From Eledone cirrhosa (taxonomy: Eukaryota): 64,000 nt of DNA. A program made the position numbers and the translations under genes. Where the stretch lies: positions 31,806,001-31,870,000 of the forward strand of contig OZ024742.1 of the NCBI GenBank assembly GCA_964016885.1, given 5' to 3'. Position 1 is the first letter of the stretch. Each line of letters begins with the position of its first letter. Below the pieces are notes generated by a model, which had not been told where the DNA came from, did not search any database, and saw only the letters and a program-made list of their open reading frames with translations. Below, piece by piece: positions 6,256 through 64,000 of the stretch.

Positions 6256-6324
<69 letters not shown>

Positions 6325-6453
6325 CAAGATTCAATGAGTACATCAAAGAATGAGTTTTACAGTAGACTGGAAGCACTCTACAGCAGATATTTTCCAGAGT
6401 TATTAATATTAATTCAAATATTAACAAAATAGATATTCTTGTGATCAATTAAA

Positions 6454-6516
6454 TTTTATTATACATATTTCAGAGGTACTGAATTAAGATCAACAGTACG
6501 TCCTCATCAGATAAAA
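6454..6516 (-). ncRNA. Type I hammerhead ribozyme motif
   Basis: Minus strand: ttttat-CTGATGA-ggacgtactg...cagtacctct-GAAA-t-atgt-ATA-ataaaa. Stem I ttttat/ataaaa; stem II gtactg/cagtac. Confidence 0.7.
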
Positions 6517-6587
6517 TAAAATGATACATGACATACCCTGACATGGTAGATGGTTAAGATTTAATCAAGGTAGCACCTTGATTAAAT

Positions 6588-6650
6588 CTTATTCTGATGA
6601 GGACGTACTGTTGAACTTAATTCAGTACCTCTGAAATATGTATAATAAAA
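6588..6650 (+). ncRNA. Type I hammerhead ribozyme motif (mirror copy, 1-nt stem I bulge)
   Basis: CTGATGA at 6594-6600, GAAA at 6633-6636; inverted copy of 6454-6516. Confidence 0.6.
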
Positions 6651-6691
6651 TTTAATTGATCACAAGAATATCTATTTTGTTAATATTTGAA

Positions 6692-6730
<39 letters not shown>

Positions 6731-7829
6731 GTATTTATCCTAGTTGTGGTATAACTATGGCCTTATGTATTTGATCCCTTTTCTTGGTGTCATTTTCTTA
6801 ACTTTGTATTCACTCTGGCCTAAAATGTATCAAATTTTCAAACCATTGAGTGATTTGTGACTGATTAAAGTTTAAACAATTTCTGCTTTCACCCTAAAGC
6901 AGGATCTTCTGAAACTTAGATATATCAATCCATAAACACCCATTAAGTCCCCTCTGGATTTTTGTCTTTGTATTTATTATTATTACTATATATATATAAT
7001 ATATATATATTCCAAACCCATGCAAGCGTGGAAGATGGACGTTAAACGATGATGATGATATAATATATATAATATATATGTGTATATATATATATATATA
7101 TAATGAAGGAAGTGTGGTAAGGAACCAGATGGACCATAACGCACCAGAGTACTCAATACTTTGAGTAGTAGAGTGGGTAATAGGAAAATGTTCAAGACCC
7201 CGACAGCAGAGCTCAAGCCGCTTCGGCGACTATTTCTGGACAGTCCAGAAATAGCCATTGAAACAGCTTGAGCTCTGCCGTCGGGGTCTTGAACATTTTC
7301 CTATATATATATGTGTGTGTATTTATATGTATATATATGTATGTGTGTGTATTTATATGTATCTATATGTATGTGTGTGTATTTATATGTATCTATATAT
7401 GTGTGTGTGTATTTATATGTATATATATGTGTGTGTGTGTGTATTTATATGTATATATATGTGTGTGTGTGTATTTATATGTATATATATATGTGTGTGT
7501 GTGTGTGTATTTATATGTATGTGTGTATGTGTGTATTTATATGTATATATATGTATGTGTGTATTTATATGTATATATATGTGTGTGTGTATTTATATGT
7601 ATATGTGTGTGTGTGTGTATTTATATGTATGTGTGTATGTGTGTATTTATATGTATATATATGTATGTGTGTATTTATATGTATATATATGTGTGTGTGT
7701 GTGTATTTATATGTATGTATATATATATATATATATATCATTTAATGTCCACATTCTCTACTAGCAAGGGTTGGACGGGTCTACAGGGACTAAGTCAGTA
7801 CTGAAGTGGGGCTATATACATTATTTATA

Positions 7830-8439: not shown

Positions 8440-8527
8440 TAATATATATATATATATAAGTATATATGTTAAGTATTTCCATAGAAAAGGTAAAGGAAAG
8501 AAGAGTGCTCTATGTATAGTACAGAGC

Positions 8528-8601
8528 TATTTCATCTGATGAATGGGTTGGACGTTTCTGTAAGGATCGTCTAGTTTCTTGAAACTTTGGGTAATGGAAT
8601 A
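8528..8601 (+). ncRNA. Type I hammerhead ribozyme motif
   Basis: tatttcat-CTGATGA-...tggacg/cgtcta...-GAAAC-tttgg-GTA-atggaata. 8-bp stem I, GUA cleavage triplet. Confidence 0.72.
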
Positions 8602-9574
8602 ATTATATTGTGTTGTTTAATATATAATTAAATAATATATATGTGTGTATATATCTATATATATATTAGCTGTACGCCAGTTGCTTAGCTAATAATGTCT
8701 TATTCAATAGGATTTTTATCTTGAATGATTTAAATTTTAAAGCAGATATCATTGTCATCATCATCATCATCATCACACGTCACCTTTCCCTGCTAGTAAG
8801 TAAACCAACTTAAGAAGAAAGTAAAAAAAGTTGCATGTGGTCATAAAAAGTAAGTAGCGTAATCTAGCAACAATCAACAATAACATCAACATAACTGACA
8901 CCACCACCATCACCTCCATCACTACCAACACTATCACCTCTACCATCACAACCACCATCATCACCTCCAACACCATCACCTCCACCAACAATACCACCAC
9001 AACCATCACTACCTTCACAACCACCAACAAGAGCAAAAACAAACGAATCTCCCTCAAATCACACCCTATCACTTAAAACAGGTCATATTTACTTTAATGT
9101 CCAAGATAAGTCAATCATACACTTGTACACACAAACACACCCATATACACACCACATGCACAGGCCCCCACCCACAGGCTTGCATACACATCCACACACA
9201 AACATGCATGCATAGATAGATACACACACAGACACTTAGTGTGGAAGATAGCTGTTAAACGATGATGATGATATATATATATATAGTTATGTGATAAACA
9301 ACACAAGATAATTATTTCATTTACCAGTGGTTTCTTGAAGACAGATGCTAGATCTGTTTTCAGTTGTCAGAAACGACTGAAAACAGATTTAGCATCTGCT
9401 TTCAAGAAACCACTGGTAAATGAAATAATTATCTTTTGTTGTTTATTACATAACTAATAAGCTCTGTAGCCTACATAGAGCACTCTTTTTTCCTGTACCT
9501 TTCTCATGGAATTACTTCACATATATATATATCATCACCACCACCACTGTATATATATATATACACAAATACAC

Positions 9575-9787: not shown

Positions 9788-10007
9788 TTATATATATCCA
9801 CACACACACACACATAATTATTCAGTATACATTTGTCTATTTTTTCTTCATACTTATAATTTACATTTAGCCCCAATTAATTGATAATTTATTTAGTTAA
9901 TTTCTCTGGACTAAGAAGAAAGGTTAGGTAAAATTTATCTGCCTGTTCTTCACACTTTTATATATATATATATATATAGTTATGTAATAAACAACATAAG
10001 ATAATTA

Positions 10008-10065
10008 TTTCATTTACCAGTGGTTTCTTGAAAGCAACCAAAATTGTTCATTCATCAGAATGAAA
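10008..10065 (-). ncRNA. Type I hammerhead ribozyme motif
   Basis: Minus strand: tttcatt-CTGATGA-atgaacaa...ttgctttcaa-GAAAC-cactg-GTA-aatgaaa. Confidence 0.72.
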
Positions 10066-10119
10066 AAATCCTGGTGTCTTTATTGACAGTGGATTTGAAA
10101 AACAAAAATATAACAGATA

Positions 10120-17520: not shown

Positions 17521-18356
17521 CTGGAATTTGAAATGTTGACCATTAGATTTATACATTATCACTAAAGTATTTATTTTTATTTATGAGTGATGTATGTTGT
17601 CTGTGTTTCAAATATGGCTTCTAGCATTAATTATCAGTTATTTGGGTGGGGAATTCTGTAGAGTATAGATATGTTGTCTGCTAAAGTTTTCCTATCTCAT
17701 GCATTGTAATAGTTTTTTGTAGTTGGTGACTGCTGAGTGGGCGAGATAGTGTTGTACTTGTATAGCCAATAAAACATTTCTAGTCACGATGTTTACATGT
17801 ATGTAATCAAATGTATATATTATCTTTGTCTTTAGAAATTTGTTTGTGGGTTTACATTCTTGTGGTTTAGTGTGAATAAGGTTTTCAGTTTGATTGTTAT
17901 CCTAGTAAACTCTTATTGTTAGTTTACTGTTTTGTGTTTCATTTTACAAGGGTTTTCATAATCTCATCATCTATTCTATAATTAGTATGCATATATAATA
18001 CAGATTATGTGTAGTTTGTGTATATTTGAGAGGTAATGAACCTGCTCCAAAACTTTTACTATGGGAGTCCACTGATGTGAAATACAAACACAGTAGACCT
18101 CTCAAGATATTAAAGATAGTCATTGAGGAAAATACAAAATTATTTGGTGAAGAACTGAGGCAGTCATTGCTGGATCATGTGAGAGGGAAAGGTTTTATGT
18201 TACCATGGGTGGAAATATATGTCTGTGCATATATATTTATATATGCACACACACATATTCCCACCCATGGTGACATGATAAAACATTTCCCTCTCACGTG
18301 ATCCAGCATTAACTGCCCCAGTTCTTCAAATAATTTTGTATCTTCCTCAATGCCTC

Positions 18357-18399
<43 letters not shown>

Positions 18400-18434
18400 T
18401 TATAATAATCAAAGAACTGTTCAAAACATTTTTA

Positions 18435-18481
18435 TGCTTACAACTGTTTCCTCCAAACCGAGGTTTGGATTCTTCGGAGCA
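18435..18481 (-). ncRNA. Type I hammerhead ribozyme motif, CCGAAGA core variant
   Basis: Reverse complement of 19273-19319, in the left arm of a 280-bp inverted repeat. Confidence 0.6.
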
Positions 18482-19272
18482 ATTTATTATTGAATGAACA
18501 CTTATATGACCTCCTTTTCACCCAAGAGACATACAGATACATATGCAAATATTGTGGGTCAACATTCATTATAACATTTAGAGTGGCAGTACGCATTTAG
18601 AGATTACATTCATATTAAAAGATACAATAAAAAATACAGGTTAAAATACAACATGAAATTAAGCGGTTATATAGTAATTCGATGTCGATTCTCGCAACGT
18701 AACATCCTCCTGTATTGAGCCAAAGAACATCAGAATACAATTCTCTAACTGGATTGTCAAACGCCCAATATCGAATCGTCGTGGATTATGTGAGGGGCAT
18801 ATAATCTGAAAAATACGCTCCCCAGACTATGAAAATGTTGCAGTGCATGAAATCCATATCATCGCTTCGCTACGCATTTCCAATATTTTTAATGCTTACA
18901 CTATTTTTAATACTTATATTATTTCTCCACACACAGACTATAACAATCATATAAAGAATTCATCACCAGATCAACAACCTTAACACTCGATTACCTGCTT
19001 AAGTGCTTCTACTACACGTAACTCTCTGCCACACTATATAAACAAGACGCACATACTTGCCACACATATAACCTTTGCACTATATAACCGCTTAATTTCA
19101 TGTTGTATTTTAACCTGTATTTTTGATTGTATCTTTTAATATGAATGTAATCTCTAAGTGTGTACTGCCACTCTAAATGTTATAATGAATGTTGACCCAC
19201 AATATTTGCATATGTATCTGTATGTCTCTTGGGTGAAAAGGAGGTCATATAAGTGTTCATTCAATAATAAAT

Positions 19273-19319
19273 TGCTCCGAAGAATCCAAACCTCGGTTTG
19301 GAGGAAACAGTTGTAAGCA
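19273..19319 (+). ncRNA. Type I hammerhead ribozyme motif, CCGAAGA core variant
   Basis: tgct-CCGAAGA-a-tccaaacc-tc-ggtttgga-g-GAAAC-agtt-GTA-agca. Confidence 0.6.
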
Positions 19320-19593
19320 TAAAAATGTTTTGAACAATTCTTTGATTATTATAATTCATATAACTGCTCTGTAAATCATCTGATATTTTTACATTGAGCT
19401 ATTTAACTTACTGGTAATAAGGTAGTAATATATTACTGCCTACCACTATTTAGGGTTTATAAAAATATATATAACTGCAAAAGGTTTTTGTATTTGCATA
19501 ACCATAAATAGTATAATTAATACTATATATATATATATATATATATATTAGTCCAACCCATGCAAGCATGGAAAAACGGACATAAAAACGATG

Positions 19594-20412: not shown

Positions 20413-20608
20413 ACCTATATATATATATATATATAGTCTGGTACTAGCTGTTGAAACAGCAAGAGCTCAGCCGTTGGGGTCCCGACTCTTTATAATATAA
20501 CCACACTCTAATACCCCAAGTATCGAGTTCTCTGTTGAGTAATGGTTTAACCAGTTTCAAACTGAATCCATCCTGATATATATATATAGGTCAGTTATAT
20601 ATATATAT

Positions 20609-23493: not shown

Positions 23494-23524
<31 letters not shown>

Positions 23525-24272
23525 TCATATACATATATATATATATATATATATAGGAACGAGTAGGACCCCGACGGCTGAGCTCAAGCCGTTTCGACGG
23601 CTAATTCTGGACTAAAATCATCCAGAATTAGCCGTCGAAACGGCTTGAGCTCAGCCGTCGGGGTCCTACTCGTTCCTATTACCCACTCTACTACCCTATG
23701 TATTGAGTACTTTGGTGCGTTATGCTCCACCTGGTTCCTTACCACATTTCCTTCGTTATATATATATATATAAAAAATAATGAAACGAAATTTCATTTCT
23801 CACTCTTAGTGTGGCTGATACTTAAATGTAAGTATGTATGTATACGTACATACATATATGTATACAGACGTACATACATATATGTATACAGACGTACAGT
23901 AGTATGTATATTTATACATACATGCACACATATATATATATGTACGTTTCGGTTTACCGAACATTTATTATAATGTTCGGTTTGTTTGTTTGTAAACAAA
24001 CAAACAAACAAACAGCCCGAATTATGTCGTACAGTGTTCAGGCAACCATCGTCGCCCTTTTGTTCAACACTGACGCACAAAGTATCTGACACATTTAAGT
24101 ACCAGCCGTACTAAGAGTGAGAAATGAAATTTCGTTTCATTCTTTTCCATTTATCGTTTTCAGTGCTTCTGGCCAACTAACTCACTCGAAATGCAAATTA
24201 AGCTGCTCAGCCGTAAATATGCATAAGGAAAGTATATACTTTCAGACGTTCAATCATCTGGCAGAAAGGTAT

Positions 24273-24315
24273 ACGATGCTGACGATAGCTAATAAGCTTG
24301 AAACTAGTATATCGT
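24273..24315 (+). ncRNA. Minimal type I hammerhead ribozyme
   Basis: acgatg-CTGACGA-t-agct-aata-agct-t-GAAAC-ta-GTA-tatcgt. Palindromic ACTAGT stem III, typical of minimal dimerising Penelope/retrozyme hammerheads. Confidence 0.78.
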
Positions 24316-24512
24316 TCCTGTGTCAGTGTTGAACAAAAGGGCGACGATGGTTGCCTGAACACTGTACAGCGTAATTCGGGCTGTTTGTTTGTTTACAAAC
24401 AAACAAACCGAACATTATAATAAATGTTTGGTAAACCGATACGTACATATATGTATGTACGTATACATACATACTTACATTTATATATATATATATATTC
24501 ATATACATATAT

Positions 24513-24854
24513 GGAGGCACATGGCTTAGTGGTTAGAGCATTGGCCTTGCAATCGAAAGGTTGTGAGTTCAATTCTCAGACTGGGTGATGTGTTTCCTTG
24601 AGCAAGACACTTTATTTCACATTGCTCCAGTTTACTCAGCTGTAGAAATGAGATGATAGGGACTAGGGTCCATATCATTCCACTGCAAAGTGGTCGTGCA
24701 GGTACCACGGCAAAAAAGCACCCAGCACTCACTGTAAATGAGGTTGGTGTTAGGAAGGGCATCCAGCTGTAGAAATCAAGCCAGAATCAGTTCCCGTCCC
24801 ACCCTTGCAAGCAGGGAAAAGCGGACGTAAAATGAAATGATGATGAAATGATGA
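24513..24854 (+). mobile_element. tRNA-derived SINE, family A
   Basis: Full-length copy. Confidence 0.88.
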
Positions 24855-32404: not shown

Positions 32405-34165
32405 TACTTTCATTACCATATTTCTAATGAAAGACACTACCTATGTCATTAACCCTTTCATTACTATATTTCTAATGAAAGACACTCCTTATGTCATTAA
32501 CCCTTTCATTACCATATTTCTAATGAAAGACACTACCTATGTCATTAACCCTTTCATTACCATATTTCTAATGAAAGACACTACCTATGTCATTAACCCT
32601 TTCATTACCATATTTCTAATGAAAGACACTACCTATGTCATTAACCCTTTCATTACTATATTTCTAATGAAAGACACTACCTATGTCATTAAACCTTTCA
32701 TTACTATATTTCTAATGAAAGACACTACCTATGTCATTAACCCTTTCATTACTATATTTCTAATGAAAGACACTACCTATGTCATTAACCCTTTCATTAC
32801 TATATTTCTAATGAAAGACACTACCTATGTCATTAACCCTTTCATTACTATATTTCTAATGAAAGACACTACCTATGTCATTAAACCTTTCATTACTATA
32901 TTTCTAATGAAAGACACTACCTATGTCATTAAACCTTTCATTACTATATTTCCAATAAAAGACACTACCTATGTCATTAAACCTTTCATTACTATATTTC
33001 TAATGAAAGACACTACCTATGTCATTAAACCTTTCATTACTATATTTCCAATAAAAGACACTCCCTATGTCATTAAACCTTTCATTACTATATTTCCAAT
33101 AAAAGACACTACCTATGTCATTAAACCTTTCATTACTATATTTCTAATGAAAGACATTCCCTATGTCATTAAACCTTTCATTACTATATTTCTAATGAAA
33201 GACACTACCTATGTCATTAAACCTTTCATTACTATATTTCCAATGAAAGACACTACCTATGTCATTAAACCTTTCATTACTATATTTCTAATGAAAGACA
33301 TTCCCTATGTCATTAAACCTTTCATTACTATATTTCTAATGAAAGACACTACCTATGTCATTAAACCTTTCATTACTATATTTCCAATAAAAGACATTCC
33401 CTATGTCATTAAACCTTTCATTACTATATTTCTAATGAAAGACACTACCTATGTCATTAAACCTTTCATTACTATATTTCCAATAAAAGACACTACCTAT
33501 GTCATTAAACCTTTCATTACTATATTTCTAATGAAAGACACTCCCTATGTCATTAAACCTTTCATTACTATATTTCCAATAAAAGACACTACCTATGTCA
33601 TTAAACCTTTCATTACTATATTTCCAATAAAAGACACTACCTATGTCATTAAACCTTTCATTACTATATTTCCAATAAAAGACACTCCCTATGTCATTAA
33701 ACCTTTCATTACTATATTTCCAATAAAAGACACTCCCTATGTCATTAAACCTTTCATTACTATATTTCCAATAAAAGACACTACCTATGTCATTAAACCT
33801 TTCATTACTATATTTCCAATAAAAGACACTCCCTATGTCATTAAACCTTTCATTACTATATTTCCAATAAAAGACACTACCTATGTCATTAAACCTTTCA
33901 TTACTATATTTCCAATAAAAGACACTCCCTATGTCATTAAACCTTTCATTACTATATTTCCAATAAAAGACACTCCCTATGTCATTAAACCTTTCATTAC
34001 TATATTTCCAATAAAAGACACTACCTATGTCATTAAACCTTTCATTACTATATTTCCAATAAAAGACACTCCCTATGTCATTAAACCTTTCATTACTATA
34101 TTTCCAATAAAAGACACTCCCTATGTCATTAAACCTTTCATTACTATATTTCTAATGAAAAACAC
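32405..34165. repeat. 48-bp minisatellite, about 36 copies
   Basis: Unit ttaaccctttcattactatatttctaatgaaagacactacctatgtca. Confidence 0.95.
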
Positions 34166-34371
34166 TGCCTTAGATTTACTAATTAATCAATTTGCCATGT
34201 AATCAGAAGACCACCTACTAACTATGTAGAATTGGTGTAACATCAGTGTTTCCCCAACCCCAGACCCTACTGTAGATTGCCCCCTAAAAAGGTGTATCTC
34301 TGAGATCTCTAATAATGTAGGGTTAACACTAGATTACTACTGTCTTCAGTTCTATTGTTTCTCTCTTTCAG

Positions 34372-37124: not shown

Positions 37125-38215
37125 TTCTGCGATGTCAATATGTAACACAAACTTCAAAAAACCCGACAACCACCTGATCACCTATAGATCAGGGGAGCAT
37201 TCTAGTCAGATAGATTTTATCCTCATCAGAGGATGTGACAGATGGACGGTCGTAAACACAAAAGCCTTCCCTAGTGAGGAATGTACCTCCCAACATAGCT
37301 TAGTTGTCAGCGACCTCACGGTCAGAACTAGACAAACCTGGAAATAGAGGCCAACCTGGAGAAGAAAGATCTGGAAGCTGAAAGACCAGTAACAGATTTA
37401 AAGATATTTTACTCAACGCCTATGACAGTAAAGAAGAACAGATAGAGACATTCAATGTAGAAGAGCACTGGGATCTCGAGAAAGCCTTTGACAGAGTTCC
37501 ACCTGCTATAATCTGGTGGGGTCTTAGAAAACTAGGAGTAGATGAATGGCTTGTGAAAGCTGTACAAGCCATGTATAGGGGAGCAGTCAGCAAAGTTAGG
37601 ATTAGCAATGAGTATAGCGAGGAATTTAGCGTACAGGTCGGTGTCCACCAGGGCTCTGTTCTTAGCCCTCTCCTGTTCATCATAGTCCTGCAGGCAATAA
37701 CGGAGGAGTTTAAGACCGGATGCCCATGGGAACTCCTGTATGCAGATGACCTCGCACTTATAGCTGAATCTATGGTAGAACTAGAGAAGAAATTCCAAAC
37801 TTGGAAGCAGGGACTAGAAAGAAAGGGTCTCAAAGTCAACCTGACAAAGACTAAGGTCCTTGTAAGTAGACGAGAAAACAGAACCCAGATCCCCTCAGGG
37901 AAATGGCCTTGCTCAGTATGTAGGAAAGGTGTAGGTAGGAACTCCATTCTCTGCCCAAAATGCAAACAATGAGTACACAAGAGATGTAGCGGGATCTCAG
38001 GAAGCTTAATTAAGAATGTAGGCTTCACATGCAGCAGCTGTACTGGGACAGCAAACAGCCACAGGAAACAAGTACCACCAATCTCGGGGAGGGCTCTGTA
38101 GAGACAGTAGACAGCTTCTGCTACCTAGGTGACCAAATTAGCAGCGGAGGTGGGTGTTCGGAAAGTACAATAACTAGGGTAAGAACAGGATGGAAGAAGT
38201 TCAGGGAGCTGGTGT
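37125..38215 (+). mobile_element. RTE-clade LINE remnant (APE endonuclease end, RT core, PHD-like Cys finger), internally deleted
   Basis: CNTNFKK...SQIDFIL...SQHSLVVSD; DLEKAFDRVP; GVHQGSVLSPLLF; LLYADDL; WPCSVC...C..C...HKRC; FCYLGD; contains stop codons. Confidence 0.88.
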
Positions 38216-46261: not shown

Positions 46262-48963
46262 TTAACCCTTTCATTACAATATTTCTAGTGAAAGACACTG
46301 TCTATATCATTAACCCTTTCATTACCATATTTCTAATGAAATACCCTGTCTATGTCATTAATCCTTTCATTACCATATTTCTAATGAAAGACCCTATCTG
46401 TGTCATTAATCTTTTCATTACCATATTTCTAATGAAAGACCCTATCTATGTCATTAATCCTTTCATTACCATATTACTAATGAAATACCCTGTCTATGTC
46501 ATTAATCCTTTCATTACCATATTTCTAATGAAAGACCCTATCTGTCATTAACCCTTTCATTACCATATTTCTAATGAAAGACCCTATCTATGTCATTAAT
46601 TCTTTCATTACCATATTTCTAATGAAAGACCCTATCTGTCATTAATCCTTTCATTACCATATTTCTAATGAAAGACCCTATCTGTCATTAACCCTTTCAT
46701 TACCATATTTCTAATGAAATACCCTATCTATGTCATTAATCCTTTCATTACCATATTTCTAATGAAAGACACTGTCTATATCATTAATCCTTTCATTACC
46801 ATATTACTAATGAAAGACACTGTCTATGTCATTAATCCTTTCATTACCATATTTCTAATGAAATACCCTATCTATGTCATTAATCCTTTCATTACCATAT
46901 TTCTAATGAAATACCCTATCTATGTCATTAATCCTTTCATTACCATATTTCTAATGAAAGACACTGTCTATGTCATTAATCCTTTCATTACCATATTTCT
47001 AATGAAAGACACTGTCTATATCATTAATCCTTTCATTACCATATTTCTAATGAAAGACACTGTCTATGTCATTAATCCTTTCATTACCATATTTCTAATG
47101 AAAGACACTGTCTATATCATTAATCCTTTCATTACCATATTTCTAATGAAAGACACTGTCTATGTCATTAATCCTTTCATTACCATATTTCTAATGAAAG
47201 ACACTGTCTATATCATTAATCCTTTCATTACCATATTTCTAATGAAAGACACTGTCTATGTCATTAATCCTTTCATTACCATATTTCTAATGAAAGACAC
47301 TGTCTATATCATTAATCCTTTCATTACCATATTTCTAATGAAAGACACTGTCTATGTCATTAATCCTTTCATTACCATATTTCTAATGAAAGACACTGTC
47401 TATATCATTAATCCTTTCATTACCATATTTCTAATGAAAGACACTGTCTATGTCATTAATCCTTTCATTACCATATTTCTAATGAAAGACACTGTCTATA
47501 TCATTAATCCTTTCATTACCATATTTCTAATGAAAGACACTGTCTATGTCATTAATCCTTTCATTACCATATTTCTAATGAAATACCCTGTCTATGCCAT
47601 TAATCCTTTCATTACCATATTTCTAATGAAAGACCCTATCTGTCATTAACCCTTTCATTACCATATTTCTAGTGAAATACCCTATCTATGTCATTAACCC
47701 TTTCATTACCATATTTCTAGTGAAATACCCTATCTATGTCATTAACCCTTTCATTACCATATTTCTAATGAAATACCCTATCTATGTCATTAATCCTTTC
47801 ATTACCATATTTCTAATGAAATACCCTATCTATGTCATTAATCCTTTCATTACCATATATCTAATGAAATACCCTATCTATGTCATTAACCCTTTCATTA
47901 CCATATTTCTAATGAAATACCCTGTCTATGTCATTAATCCTTTCATTACCATATTTCTAATGAAATCCCCTGTCTATGTCATTAATCCTTTCATTACCAT
48001 ATATCTAATGAAATACCCTGTCTATGTCATTAATCCTTTCATTACCATATTTCTAATGAAAGACACTATCATCATCATCATCATCATTTCATTTTACGTC
48101 CGCTTTTTCCCTGCTTGAAAGGGTGGGATGGAAACTGATGCTGACTTGGTTTCTACAGCTGGATGCCCTTCCTAACACCAACCTCATTTACAGTGAGTGC
48201 TGGATGCTTTTTTGCTGTGGCACCTCCACGACCACTCTGCAGTGGAATGATAGGGACCCCAGTCCCTATCATCTCATTTCTACAGCTGAGTAAACTGGAG
48301 CAATGTGAAATAAAGTGTCTTGCTCAAGGAAACAACACATCACCCAGTCTGAGAATTGAACTCACAACCTTTCAATTGCAAGGCCAATGCTCTAATCACT
48401 AAGCCATGTGCCATTAATCCTTTCATTACCATATTTCTAATGAAAGACACTGTCTATGTCATTAATCCTTTCATTACCATATTTCTAATGAAAGACACTG
48501 TCTATGTCATTAATCCTTTCATTACCATATTTCTAATGAAAGACCCTATCTATGTCATTAATCCTTTCATTACCATATTTCTAATGAAAGACCCTATCTA
48601 TGTCATTAATCCTTTCATTAACATATTACTAATGAAAGACACTGTCTATGTCATTAATCCTTTCATTACCATATATCTAATGAAATACCCTATCTATGTC
48701 ATTAATCCTTTCATTACCATATTTCTAATGAAAGACACTGTCTATGTCATTAATCCTTTCATTACCATATTTCTAATGAAAGACACTGTCTATGTCATTA
48801 ATCCTTTCATTACCATATTTCTAATGAAAGACCCTATCTATGTCATTAATCCTTTCATTACCATATTTCTAATGAAAGACCCTATCTATGTCATTAATCC
48901 TTTCATTACCATATTACTAATGAAAGACACTATCTATGTCATTAATCCTTTCATTACCATATT
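46262..48963. repeat. 48-bp minisatellite (same family) interrupted by a SINE
   Basis: Unit ttaatcctttcattaccatatttctaatgaaagacactgtctatgtca. Confidence 0.95.
48070..48412 (-). mobile_element. SINE family A inserted in the 48-bp minisatellite
   Basis: Near-identical to the other copies; the array resumes at 48413. Confidence 0.88.
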
Positions 48964-63291: not shown

Positions 63292-63399
63292 ACCGATCCC
63301 GTATGTTGCGACAGTACAGCTTACCAACACCACTTTGTTACTCAATTGGTAATCCTACTTATACTAAAGGAATTGACATCCAACAAGTACACATAAAAG
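63292..63399 (+). CDS. DAPK1: DAPK ROC domain exon (RSRMLRQYSLPTPLCYSIGNPTYTKGIDIQQVHIK)
   Basis: tccag|...|gtact, phase 1/1. TKGIDIQ matches DAPK1 TKAIDIQ (switch I). Confidence 0.88.
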
Positions 63400-63538
63400 G
63401 TACTTACCTCTCTCTCTCTCTCCCTTTCTATCCCCCTCTCTGTCTTCCTCTCCGTATCTCTCTCTCCCTCCCAGGCTCTATTTTTCTCTCTTTCACTCTC
63501 TCTCATACATACCACTATTCTTCTGTTTATTTCTCCAG

Positions 63539-63733
63539 GAATTGGCGACCTAAGTATCTGGGACTTCTCTGGGTACCAGCCCTACTATATGCTCTACGAC
63601 CATTTCTTAGGTGACCAAAACTGTGTCACTATCGTTGGATTTAGTCTGACTGATTCCTTTGATGAACAAATAGCCCAGGTGATGTTCTGGTTAAATTTTG
63701 TCAAATCCAGGGTTTGCCTACAACCTCCGCTTG
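63539..63733 (+). CDS. DAPK1: DAPK ROC domain exon (GIGDLSIWDFSGYQPYYMLYDHFLG...QVMFWLNFVKSRVCLQPPL); gene continues beyond the window
   Basis: tccag|...|gtaag. WDFSG switch II; matches GVGDFSVWEFSG...QVIFWLSFLKS. Confidence 0.92.
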
Positions 63734-64000
63734 GTAAGTTTACACCATCATTTTCCTTTAACCCTTTCATTAACTTCATCATTATCATCACCACTGTTAT
63801 CATCACCATCATCATCACTCATTGCCACCACCATCATCATCGTCATCACCACTGTTATCATCATCACCATCGCCACTGTCATCATCATCATCATCATTTT
63901 ATGAACCCCTCCTCCATCTCTGCAAGTGTTTTGTGGGTTATCACTGATGAACTCACCAACACATACATGCTTACATACACATAGACACATACATAAATAC

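What the first reader, a model, noticed from the sequence alone, without database searches (positions are those of the whole stretch)
23778..24483. Exact ~386-nt circularly permuted hammerhead monomer plus an inverted copy spanning the circle junction (retrozyme/circRNA footprint)
Seen: the right part runs A (from ACATTTA at 24091), spacer, intact hammerhead (24273-24315), then B, and ends at the same ACATTTA (24477-24483). The left part (23778-24075) is the reverse complement of B joined directly to A, reading ...catacttACATTTAagtatcagcc on the minus strand. In the template, therefore, B is followed by A, so the unit is tandem or circular with a period of about 386 nt. Established: metazoan non-LTR retrozymes are units of a few hundred nt with a type I hammerhead that produce circular RNAs. 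Inference: reverse transcription of a circular or multimeric RNA, with a strand inversion, integrated into (TA)n.
Basis: partly seen in the sequence, partly recalled or inferred. Interest (0 to 1): 0.82.

Follow-up and report, generated by a model that had tools for sequence, protein, structure and literature searches.

The report
Retrozyme copy with Penelope-style insertion scar
This is one inserted copy of an abundant, non-coding, roughly 390-base animal repeat that carries a self-cutting hammerhead RNA, and the way it landed (a mirrored partial copy with a short extra tail, in a TA run) points to a Penelope-type jumping gene as the enzyme that moves such repeats, while whether its RNA is a circle remains untested.

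Summary
24091-24483 is one 386-nt unit plus a 5-7-nt overlap and holds a canonical type I hammerhead (cut site 24309/24310). The minus-strand arm 23773-24077 reads B joined to A. 'Exact 386' holds for this arm only: the mirrored arm is 90 nt longer and differs at 10 of 214 positions. Public runs show a high-copy family in two species labels. B-to-A is the family's normal junction, and A joins the hammerhead with no ORF between, so the unit is a closed non-coding cycle, i.e. a non-LTR retrozyme. The geometry needs no circle. A head-to-head 5'-truncated arm, a ~50-56-nt 'tail' on one arm and a (TA)n target are the published insertion signature of Penelope-like elements (PLEs), and three other hammerhead-bearing families in this window show it too. 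Best reading: a PLE reverse transcriptase/endonuclease, acting in trans, primed from both strands of a (TA)n nick at two internal start sites on more-than-unit RNA. Whether that RNA was circular or a linear multimer is open (about 30:70); no RNA run could be laid. New member of a known kind, with anatomical support for the proposed PLE-retrozyme link.

The parts
24091..24483 (+). Direct arm: one full unit (A, spacer, hammerhead, B; 386 nt) plus 5-7 nt terminal redundancy; ends at 3' start site 1 (CATTTA 24478-83)
24091..24153 (+). Segment A = the family's 'tail', between the unit's only two CATTTA hexamers (24092 and 24148, 56 nt apart); holds a stem-loop at about 24113-24146
   Evidence: 3 contigs of run X5 run into (TA)n behind 24154
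24248..24334 (+). Canonical type I hammerhead with extended, bulged stem I; core 24273-24315; predicted cut 24309/24310
   Evidence: family letters
24310..24476 (+). Segment B: hairpins built partly from (TGTT)n and TAYR simple repeats
24078..24090 (.). 13-nt filler at the head-to-head junction, origin unresolved; its last 5 nt plus the first 3 nt of the direct arm form an 8-mer also present in the reverse complement of 24319-24326
   Evidence: junction print; depth 0 in 4 runs
23830..24077 (-). Inverted arm, B part: starts 9 nt downstream of the cut site (equivalent of 24319); 90 nt longer than B of the direct arm
23773..23829 (-). Inverted arm, A part (tail), ending at the equivalent of 24146-24153 (start site 2)
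23757..23772 (.). (TA)n target run, left
24482..24498 (.). (TA)n target run, right
23516..23538 (+). Left copy of a 23-bp candidate target-site duplication
   Evidence: identical to 24490-24512; the core 10-mer occurs only at these 2 places in 64 kb, both strands; low-complexity, so tentative
24490..24512 (+). Right copy of the candidate target-site duplication
23556..23756 (.). Separate element of another family (59-bp perfect inverted repeat plus ~77-nt unmirrored tail) lying inside the candidate TSD, probably a later insertion into the left TA run
   Evidence: siblings at 7103-7296, 2285-2408, 20434-20544

Best explanation
One genomic insertion of a high-copy, non-coding retrozyme family (about 390-nt closed unit, canonical type I hammerhead), made in trans by the RT/GIY-YIG protein of a Penelope-like element. 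Steps: (1) SHOWN: the family template is a closed cycle A-spacer-hammerhead-B-A with no ORF. (2) SHOWN: the insertion has two 3' ends in (TA)n on opposite strands, at two points of the cycle about 50-56 nt apart, and the two arms meet head to head. (3) INFERRED, by analogy to the anole PLE assay: the enzyme nicks both strands of the TA run and starts cDNA at two internal sites, each at or near a CATTTA hexamer beside the A stem-loop, so one arm carries the tail. (4) INFERRED: the cDNA from site 1 ran through an intact hammerhead for one full unit, so its RNA was an uncleaved multimer or a religated circle, not a cleaved linear monomer; the cDNA from site 2 stopped 9 nt short of the cut site; the two 3' ends were joined with a 13-nt filler. 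(5) INFERRED: the hammerhead, with its 2-bp palindromic stem III, cuts mainly as a dimer in multimeric transcripts. I put the template of this copy at about 70% linear multimer, 30% circle. The copy itself is probably an inert, aged insertion.
For: Closed cycle: loose ends before 24091 match the end of B in 24,883 X14 reads (agreement 0.98; 62,549 reads laid of 12,467,656 read), 55+62 X1 contigs, 2 X5 contigs and 93+76 X4 contigs (another species label). X4 record 11 spans 24116-24319 in one piece; X1 records 1, 3 and 4 overlap across 24111-24309. Longest ATG-started frame in a tripled unit is 49 aa.

Hammerhead class: helix I 6 bp, helix II 4 bp and a 1-2-bp palindromic helix III define the canonical metazoan type I motif (PMC4209133); U.U at the base of helix II occurs in an axolotl retrozyme (PMC7229834). 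Among the 40 of 129 variant rows shown, the only core position that varies is position 7; four stem I changes keep pairing (24255, 24261, 24276, 24310).

PLE geometry: an inverted 5'-truncated copy next to the 5' end, a tail at one end and (TA)n targets are described in PMC8557442 and PMC3846280. The tail equals the distance between two internal RT start sites, and both DNA strands are cut and extended, in PMC11167929. The same mirrored-arm-plus-tail layout occurs in three other families in this window. Candidate 23-bp TSD.
Against: No autonomous partner was found: no PLE ORF in the window (11 of 35 long frames scanned; the one RT hit looks like a LINE, family assignment recalled) and no genome was held. 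Arrays with two or more hammerheads were not seen; B-to-A reads could all come from tails of dispersed copies. The tail (50-56 nt) is longer than the 30-40 bp in print. The arms differ by 10 substitutions and 90 nt, which one event from one RNA does not explain without later change. There is no palindrome at the inverted junction, unlike the rotifer cases. This junction is absent from the 4 runs laid. The predicted minimum-energy fold does not give the active hammerhead, and the hammerhead region alone is not unusually stable (z -1.18, 21 of 200 shuffles).
Confidence: 0.72

Rival explanations
1. The two arms are independent insertions of the same family that landed back to back in one TA run, or one arm arose later by rearrangement.
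For: The arms differ at 10 of 214 positions and by 90 nt. TA runs in this window collect several elements; another family sits right beside this one.
Against: No (TA)n or target remnant lies between the arms, only 13 nt. Both 3' ends face outwards into TA runs, the layout of single PLE insertions and of other elements here. The direct arm alone differs from the X1 majority letter at 15 or more of 386 positions, so 4.7% between arms fits ageing of one insertion.
Confidence: 0.1
2. The unit is only the pseudo-LTR of a longer coding PLE, and this copy is a truncated partial tandem with an inverted pLTR.
For: Geometry identical to coding PLE insertions. Summed contig depth is lowest in the spacer (24154-24195), where an ORF could have lain, and X4 has loose ends behind 24145 (45 contigs) and before 24258 (66 contigs).
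Against: Contigs in two species labels bridge A to the spacer and hammerhead with no insert. The hammerhead is of the canonical, not the minimal PLE, type. In a coding PLE the sequence after the tail is the element body, yet here it is the spacer leading back to the hammerhead. A coding parent may still exist, in which case this unit is its deletion derivative, which is the retrozyme origin proposed in bioRxiv 10.64898/2026.07.22.740005.
Confidence: 0.1
3. A LINE (RTE or L1 type) mobilised the repeat, and the inversion is LINE-style twin priming on a single RNA.
For: A LINE-like RT remnant lies in the window (37382-37972); LINEs are named as possible helpers in PMC7229834.
Against: Twin priming copies two non-overlapping parts of one RNA (recalled); here the arms overlap over about 214 nt, both have defined internal 3' ends, and there is no poly(A) or 3' repeat.
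Confidence: 0.05
4. The inverted arm is an assembly or fold-back artefact.
For: The junction has depth 0 in 4 of 4 runs laid.
Against: A fold-back would give identical arms and a symmetric junction. These differ in sequence and length, the left arm has the family-majority letter at 24368 and 24429 where the right arm does not, and it contains the B-A junction that the right arm lacks.
Confidence: 0.03

Closest known systems
Metazoan non-LTR retrozymes (Cervera and de la Pena 2020, PMC7229834; read: passages, Discussion; supplement unreadable)
   Same: 150-450-bp non-coding unit (mussel 350-390 bp), low GC (0.37), canonical type I hammerhead, high copy number, TSD longer than 4 bp; U.U at the base of helix II as in HHR_Amex2.
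   Different: Described as head-to-tail arrays with abundant circRNA. Here: a dispersed monomer with an inverted, tailed arm; arrays and circRNA not shown. 'inverted' occurs 0 times in that main text.
EN+ Penelope-like element insertions with inverted pLTR and tail (PMC8557442, PMC3846280, passages read; PMC11167929, abstract, main text and part of methods read)
   Same: Head-to-head 5'-truncated inverted copy, tail on one end only, AT-rich or (TA)n target, two internal 3' ends near a stem-loop, type I hammerhead upstream of them.
   Different: No ORF; the unit closes on itself; canonical rather than minimal hammerhead; tail 50-56 nt rather than 30-40; filler rather than palindrome at the junction.
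Vertebrate retrozymes as non-autonomous PLE derivatives (Li, Clavereau, Pollet, bioRxiv 10.64898/2026.07.22.740005; read: parts 1-3 of 5, abstract to Discussion)
   Same: Same proposed relationship; solo monomers are common there.
   Different: Their evidence is co-occurrence and pLTR homology, mainly in vertebrates. 'tail' and 'target site' occur 0 times and 'inverted' once, in a reference title. No insertion anatomy is given.
Putative non-autonomous Chlamys PLEs such as MRC1 (PMC8557442, passage read)
   Same: Non-coding elements that make pLTRs and head-to-tail copies with PLE machinery.
   Different: Green algae; that clade mostly lacks canonical hammerheads.

Membership tests
non-LTR retrozyme | Canonical type I hammerhead | tested here: met
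   against the definition in PMC4209133; Rfam models do not score it
non-LTR retrozyme | Unit of 150-450 bp, GC under 50%, no coding ORF | tested here: met
   386 nt, GC 0.37, longest ATG-started frame 49 aa
non-LTR retrozyme | Unit closes on itself (end joins start) | tested here: met
   B-to-A loose ends in 4 of 4 runs; A-to-hammerhead bridging contigs in X1 and X4
non-LTR retrozyme | Multi-copy family | tested here: met
   7,790 of 16,285,364 contigs in X1; 62,549 of 12,467,656 reads in X14 (80% likeness; not a copy number)
non-LTR retrozyme | Genomic head-to-tail arrays with two or more hammerheads | tested here: inconclusive
   None at this locus; no listed piece spans a whole unit and the unit's end was masked as a repeat; no genome held
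non-LTR retrozyme | Self-cleavage and circular RNA in vivo | not testable with these tools
   Needs RNA reads or a bench assay; none could be laid
Penelope-like element (autonomous) | ORF with telomerase-like RT and GIY-YIG endonuclease | tested here: not met
   No ORF in the unit; none adjacent
PLE-type insertion product | Inverted 5'-truncated copy adjoining the 5' end | tested here: met
   23773-24077 (-) against 24091-24483 (+)
PLE-type insertion product | 3' tail on one end only (30-40 bp in print) | tested here: met
   Present on the inverted arm only, but 50-56 nt long
PLE-type insertion product | AT-rich or (TA)n target, TSD optional | tested here: met
   (TA)n at both ends; candidate 23-bp TSD
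PLE-type insertion product | 3' end region shared with an autonomous PLE of the same genome | not testable with these tools
   No genome held; pattern scans of three microbial and viral collections gave 0 loci

The most novel reading that the evidence does not exclude
The direct arm is the footprint of a PLE reverse transcriptase going exactly once round a hammerhead-made RNA circle: it began at an internal CATTTA site, crossed the religated cut site and stalled 5-7 nt past its own start, while a second subunit copied a cleaved linear RNA of a longer family member from the second site to within 9 nt of its 5' end. If unit-length direct arms with breakpoints at their own start site are the rule in this family, these insertions would be genomic evidence that animal retrozyme circles are real transposition templates for PLE enzymes. 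A breakpoint within about 7 nt of one period has roughly a 2-4% chance if truncation were uniform over one unit, but that is one post-hoc case.
Probability: 0.28. Interest if true: 0.68.

Novelty: new member of a known kind. Interest (0 to 1): 0.42.

Why it matters
Which enzyme moves animal retrozymes is still argued from co-occurrence and homology: a 2020 review says the repeats show no motif pointing to the helper (PMC7761336), and the 2026 preprint says the mechanism remains to be elucidated. A retrozyme copy that bears the PLE-specific inverted arm, tail and (TA)n target is anatomical support for PLE mobilisation, and it names the likely cis element (the 56-nt stretch between two CATTTA hexamers). 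I found no such description in searches, but subscription papers, Repbase and the supplement of PMC7229834 were out of reach. With a genome, the family would allow a cheap test of circle versus linear template from breakpoint statistics. Both ingredients (retrozymes, PLE inverted-tail insertions) are known, so the surprise is moderate.

Tried and rejected
- No genome held, so no copy survey or search for the autonomous partner.
- No RNA holder listed; this says nothing about expression. Ten of the 13 holder rows had small shares; two of these (X4, X5) were laid, the other eight were not and are not used.
- Pattern scans: 0 loci in metagenome contigs, viral contigs (35, 52) and genome contigs (53).
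- Rfam: no hammerhead model matched.
- X14 loose ends behind 24131-24133 (24,550 reads, agreement 0.34) first looked like a family-wide tail end. Rejected: all four places where many molecules end in that run are the unit's three AATT sites, and some reads join one AATT site to another, so the library is restriction-shaped and chimeric there.
- Six of the 15 joints shown (83 in all) switch strand between 24091-24106 and 24249-24318 in X14 (44-115 reads, 1-2 start places each). They fit other head-to-head insertions, but their A-side positions coincide with alignment drop-offs and a restriction site, so I do not use them to claim that breakpoints cluster at one period. Their far ends do not cluster at the cut site.
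- Whole-unit folding stability (z -5.72; circular -106.4 against -75.1 +/- 5.0 kcal/mol) is not counted for a circle, because palindromic simple repeats in B drive much of it.
- The RT remnant at 37382-37972 is 13 kb away and LINE-like; rejected as partner.
- The origin of the 13-nt filler was not resolved.
- Pfam found nothing in six frames of the 18392-19362 element.
- Earlier-finding look-ups by sequence, genome and one word set were empty.

Full report
OBSERVATION. The direct arm runs from ACATTTA at 24091 to the same heptamer at 24477-24483 and then into (TA)n: one 386-nt unit plus 5-7 nt. It holds a type I hammerhead with a 6-pair stem I, CUGACGA at 24279-85, a 4-pair stem II with U.U at its base, GAAA, a palindromic 2-pair stem III and GUA at 24307-09. 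Stem I extends through a bulge to about 24248/24334. Descriptor scans gave 4 and 5 hits in the window against means of 0.01 (100 shuffles) and 0.083 (60 shuffles); Rfam does not score the motif. The minus-strand arm 23773-24077 starts at the equivalent of 24319, runs through B, crosses ACATTTA into A and ends in (TA)n at the equivalent of 24146-24153. It matches at 204 of 214 aligned positions but has 8 + 82 extra nt. A 13-nt filler joins the arms. A 23-bp direct repeat (23516-23538, 24490-24512) brackets the element together with a neighbouring insertion; its core 10-mer occurs only there in the window, though 15 of 169 TA-run-edge 14-mers recur, so it is a tentative TSD.

THE FAMILY. No genome was held. 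I laid 4 of the 16 runs listed on 24070-24486 at 80% likeness. The repeat is abundant in species label A (7,790 contigs in X1; 62,549 of 12,467,656 reads in X14) and present in label B (2,395 contigs in X4). What precedes position 24091 is the end of B: 24,883 X14 reads at 0.98 agreement, and contigs in X1, X4 and X5 (24 of 762 loose-end rows were shown). What follows A is the spacer and hammerhead: X4 record 11 spans 24116-24319, and X1 records 1, 3 and 4 overlap across 24111-24309. The cycle is therefore closed with no ORF. Of 40 variant rows shown (129 in all), the only catalytic-core position that varies is position 7. The family has C at 24310 (99.7% of X1 depth), making the first stem I pair G-C where this copy has G.U, and no row changes the U.U pair. 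This copy differs from the X1 majority at 15 or more of 386 positions, so it is aged. Three X5 contigs pass into (TA)n behind 24154, and summed depth in X5 falls from 3,685 to 114 across that boundary (a crude measure). The unit has only two CATTTA hexamers, at 24092 and 24148: the direct arm ends at the first, and the X5 contigs and probably the inverted arm end at the second. Run X14 is shaped by AATT restriction sites, so I discount its loose ends at 24131-33 and treat its six strand-switch joints as weak support only. Arrays with two hammerheads were not observed, and no RNA was examined.

WHAT THE GEOMETRY MEANS. The literature gives a plainer source. PLE insertions often have an inverted 5'-truncated copy next to the 5' end and a 30-40-bp tail at one end, with a bias for (TA)n (PMC8557442, passages; PMC3846280, passages). 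In the anole PLE assay both DNA strands are cut and extended, RT starts at two internal sites whose spacing is the tail, and hammerhead cleavage is not needed (PMC11167929). The window shows this layout repeatedly: 6320-6698 (hammerheads in both arms, ~86-nt unmirrored end), 7103-7304 and 23553-23756 (~77 nt), and 9284-9527 with relatives at 8454-8632 and 9977-10117 (~70 nt). Those are short stumps whose hammerheads have long helix II, as in PLE minimal motifs. The finding differs in two ways: its hammerhead is the canonical retrozyme type (PMC4209133, parts 1-2 of 4; PMC7229834), and its direct arm is long enough to show that the unit closes on itself.

MECHANISM. Shown: closed non-coding unit; two outward-facing 3' ends in (TA)n at two points about 50-56 nt apart; head-to-head junction. 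Inferred: a PLE RT/endonuclease in trans primed both strands and began at the two CATTTA sites. The direct arm crosses an intact hammerhead, so its template was not a cleaved linear monomer; an uncleaved multimer or a religated circle both fit. For a circle: the arm is one period long to within 5-7 nt, and retrozymes of coral, mussel and axolotl make circles. Against: one post-hoc case; the PLE enzyme uses uncleaved RNA in vitro; only 1 of 9 Xenopus retrozyme dimers cleaved in vitro; this hammerhead has a weak stem III and does not fold into the active form as a monomer in the model. The 90-nt length difference suggests two templates or a later deletion between short direct repeats; I cannot tell which. 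Confidence 0.72 for PLE-type mobilisation of a retrozyme unit; about 0.3 that this copy was templated on a circle.

COMPARISON AND NOVELTY. It works like a non-autonomous PLE passenger. It meets four of six retrozyme criteria; arrays are inconclusive and circRNA was untestable. It fails the autonomous-PLE test (no ORF) and meets the three testable PLE insertion features. The PLE-retrozyme link is already proposed (PMC7229834; PMC7761336, passages; bioRxiv 10.64898/2026.07.22.740005, parts 1-3 of 5), on co-occurrence and homology. I found no report of a retrozyme copy with an inverted arm and tail (searches; word counts). The repeat landscape recalls an octopus (recalled, untested); searches listed no cephalopod retrozyme, but the supplement of PMC7229834, which may list one, could not be read. 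Earlier AI notes from other genomes describe similar PLE stumps; they are leads, not support.

VERDICT. Real feature; new member of a known kind; interest 0.42. The useful point is the PLE signature on a retrozyme-type unit and a concrete breakpoint test of the circle model. The most novel reading (one lap round a circle) has probability 0.28 and would deserve 0.68.

Noticed in passing
window 6320-6698: Inverted repeat (6406-6698, 85%) with a hammerhead in each arm (6510 minus, 6594 plus) and an ~86-nt unmirrored left end, between long (TA)n runs: PLE-type stump of another family.
   Followed up: partly
window 23553-23756, 7103-7304, 2285-2408, 20434-20544: Four copies of a family whose mirrored arms hold what reads by eye as the 3' half of a hammerhead with a long stem III; the 23553-23679 copy has perfect 59-bp arms.
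   Followed up: partly
window 8454-8632, 9284-9527, 9977-10117: Third hammerhead family (motifs at 8536 plus, 10058 minus); at 8454 the reverse complement of the ~70-nt tail sits directly before the hammerhead.
   Followed up: partly
window-wide: Unmirrored ends (tails) of four families here measure about 50-56, 70, 77 and 86 nt, all longer than the 30-40 bp quoted for PLEs.
   Followed up: no
window 18392-19362: Young inverted repeat, 284-bp arms at 98.6%, 403-nt spacer, (TA)n on the left only; no hammerhead hit, no Pfam hit in six frames.
   Followed up: partly
window 18107-18366: Another 260-bp quasi-palindrome (85%) abutting the same (TA)n run.
   Followed up: no
window 37140-38200: Broken LINE-like remnant with an RT domain at 37382-37972 (Pfam RVT_1, E 6.6e-21).
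   Followed up: partly
window 24520-24583: tRNA-like head (Rfam 29.9 bits), probably a tRNA-derived SINE, starting just after the right TSD copy.
   Followed up: no
window 32407-34170 and 46262-48963: Two arrays of a related 48-bp AT-rich minisatellite (36.8 and 56.5 copies).
   Followed up: no
window 63397-63984: 195-aa open frame with a weak Roc/Ras-like hit (E 0.003, below cut-off); possible host exon.
   Followed up: no
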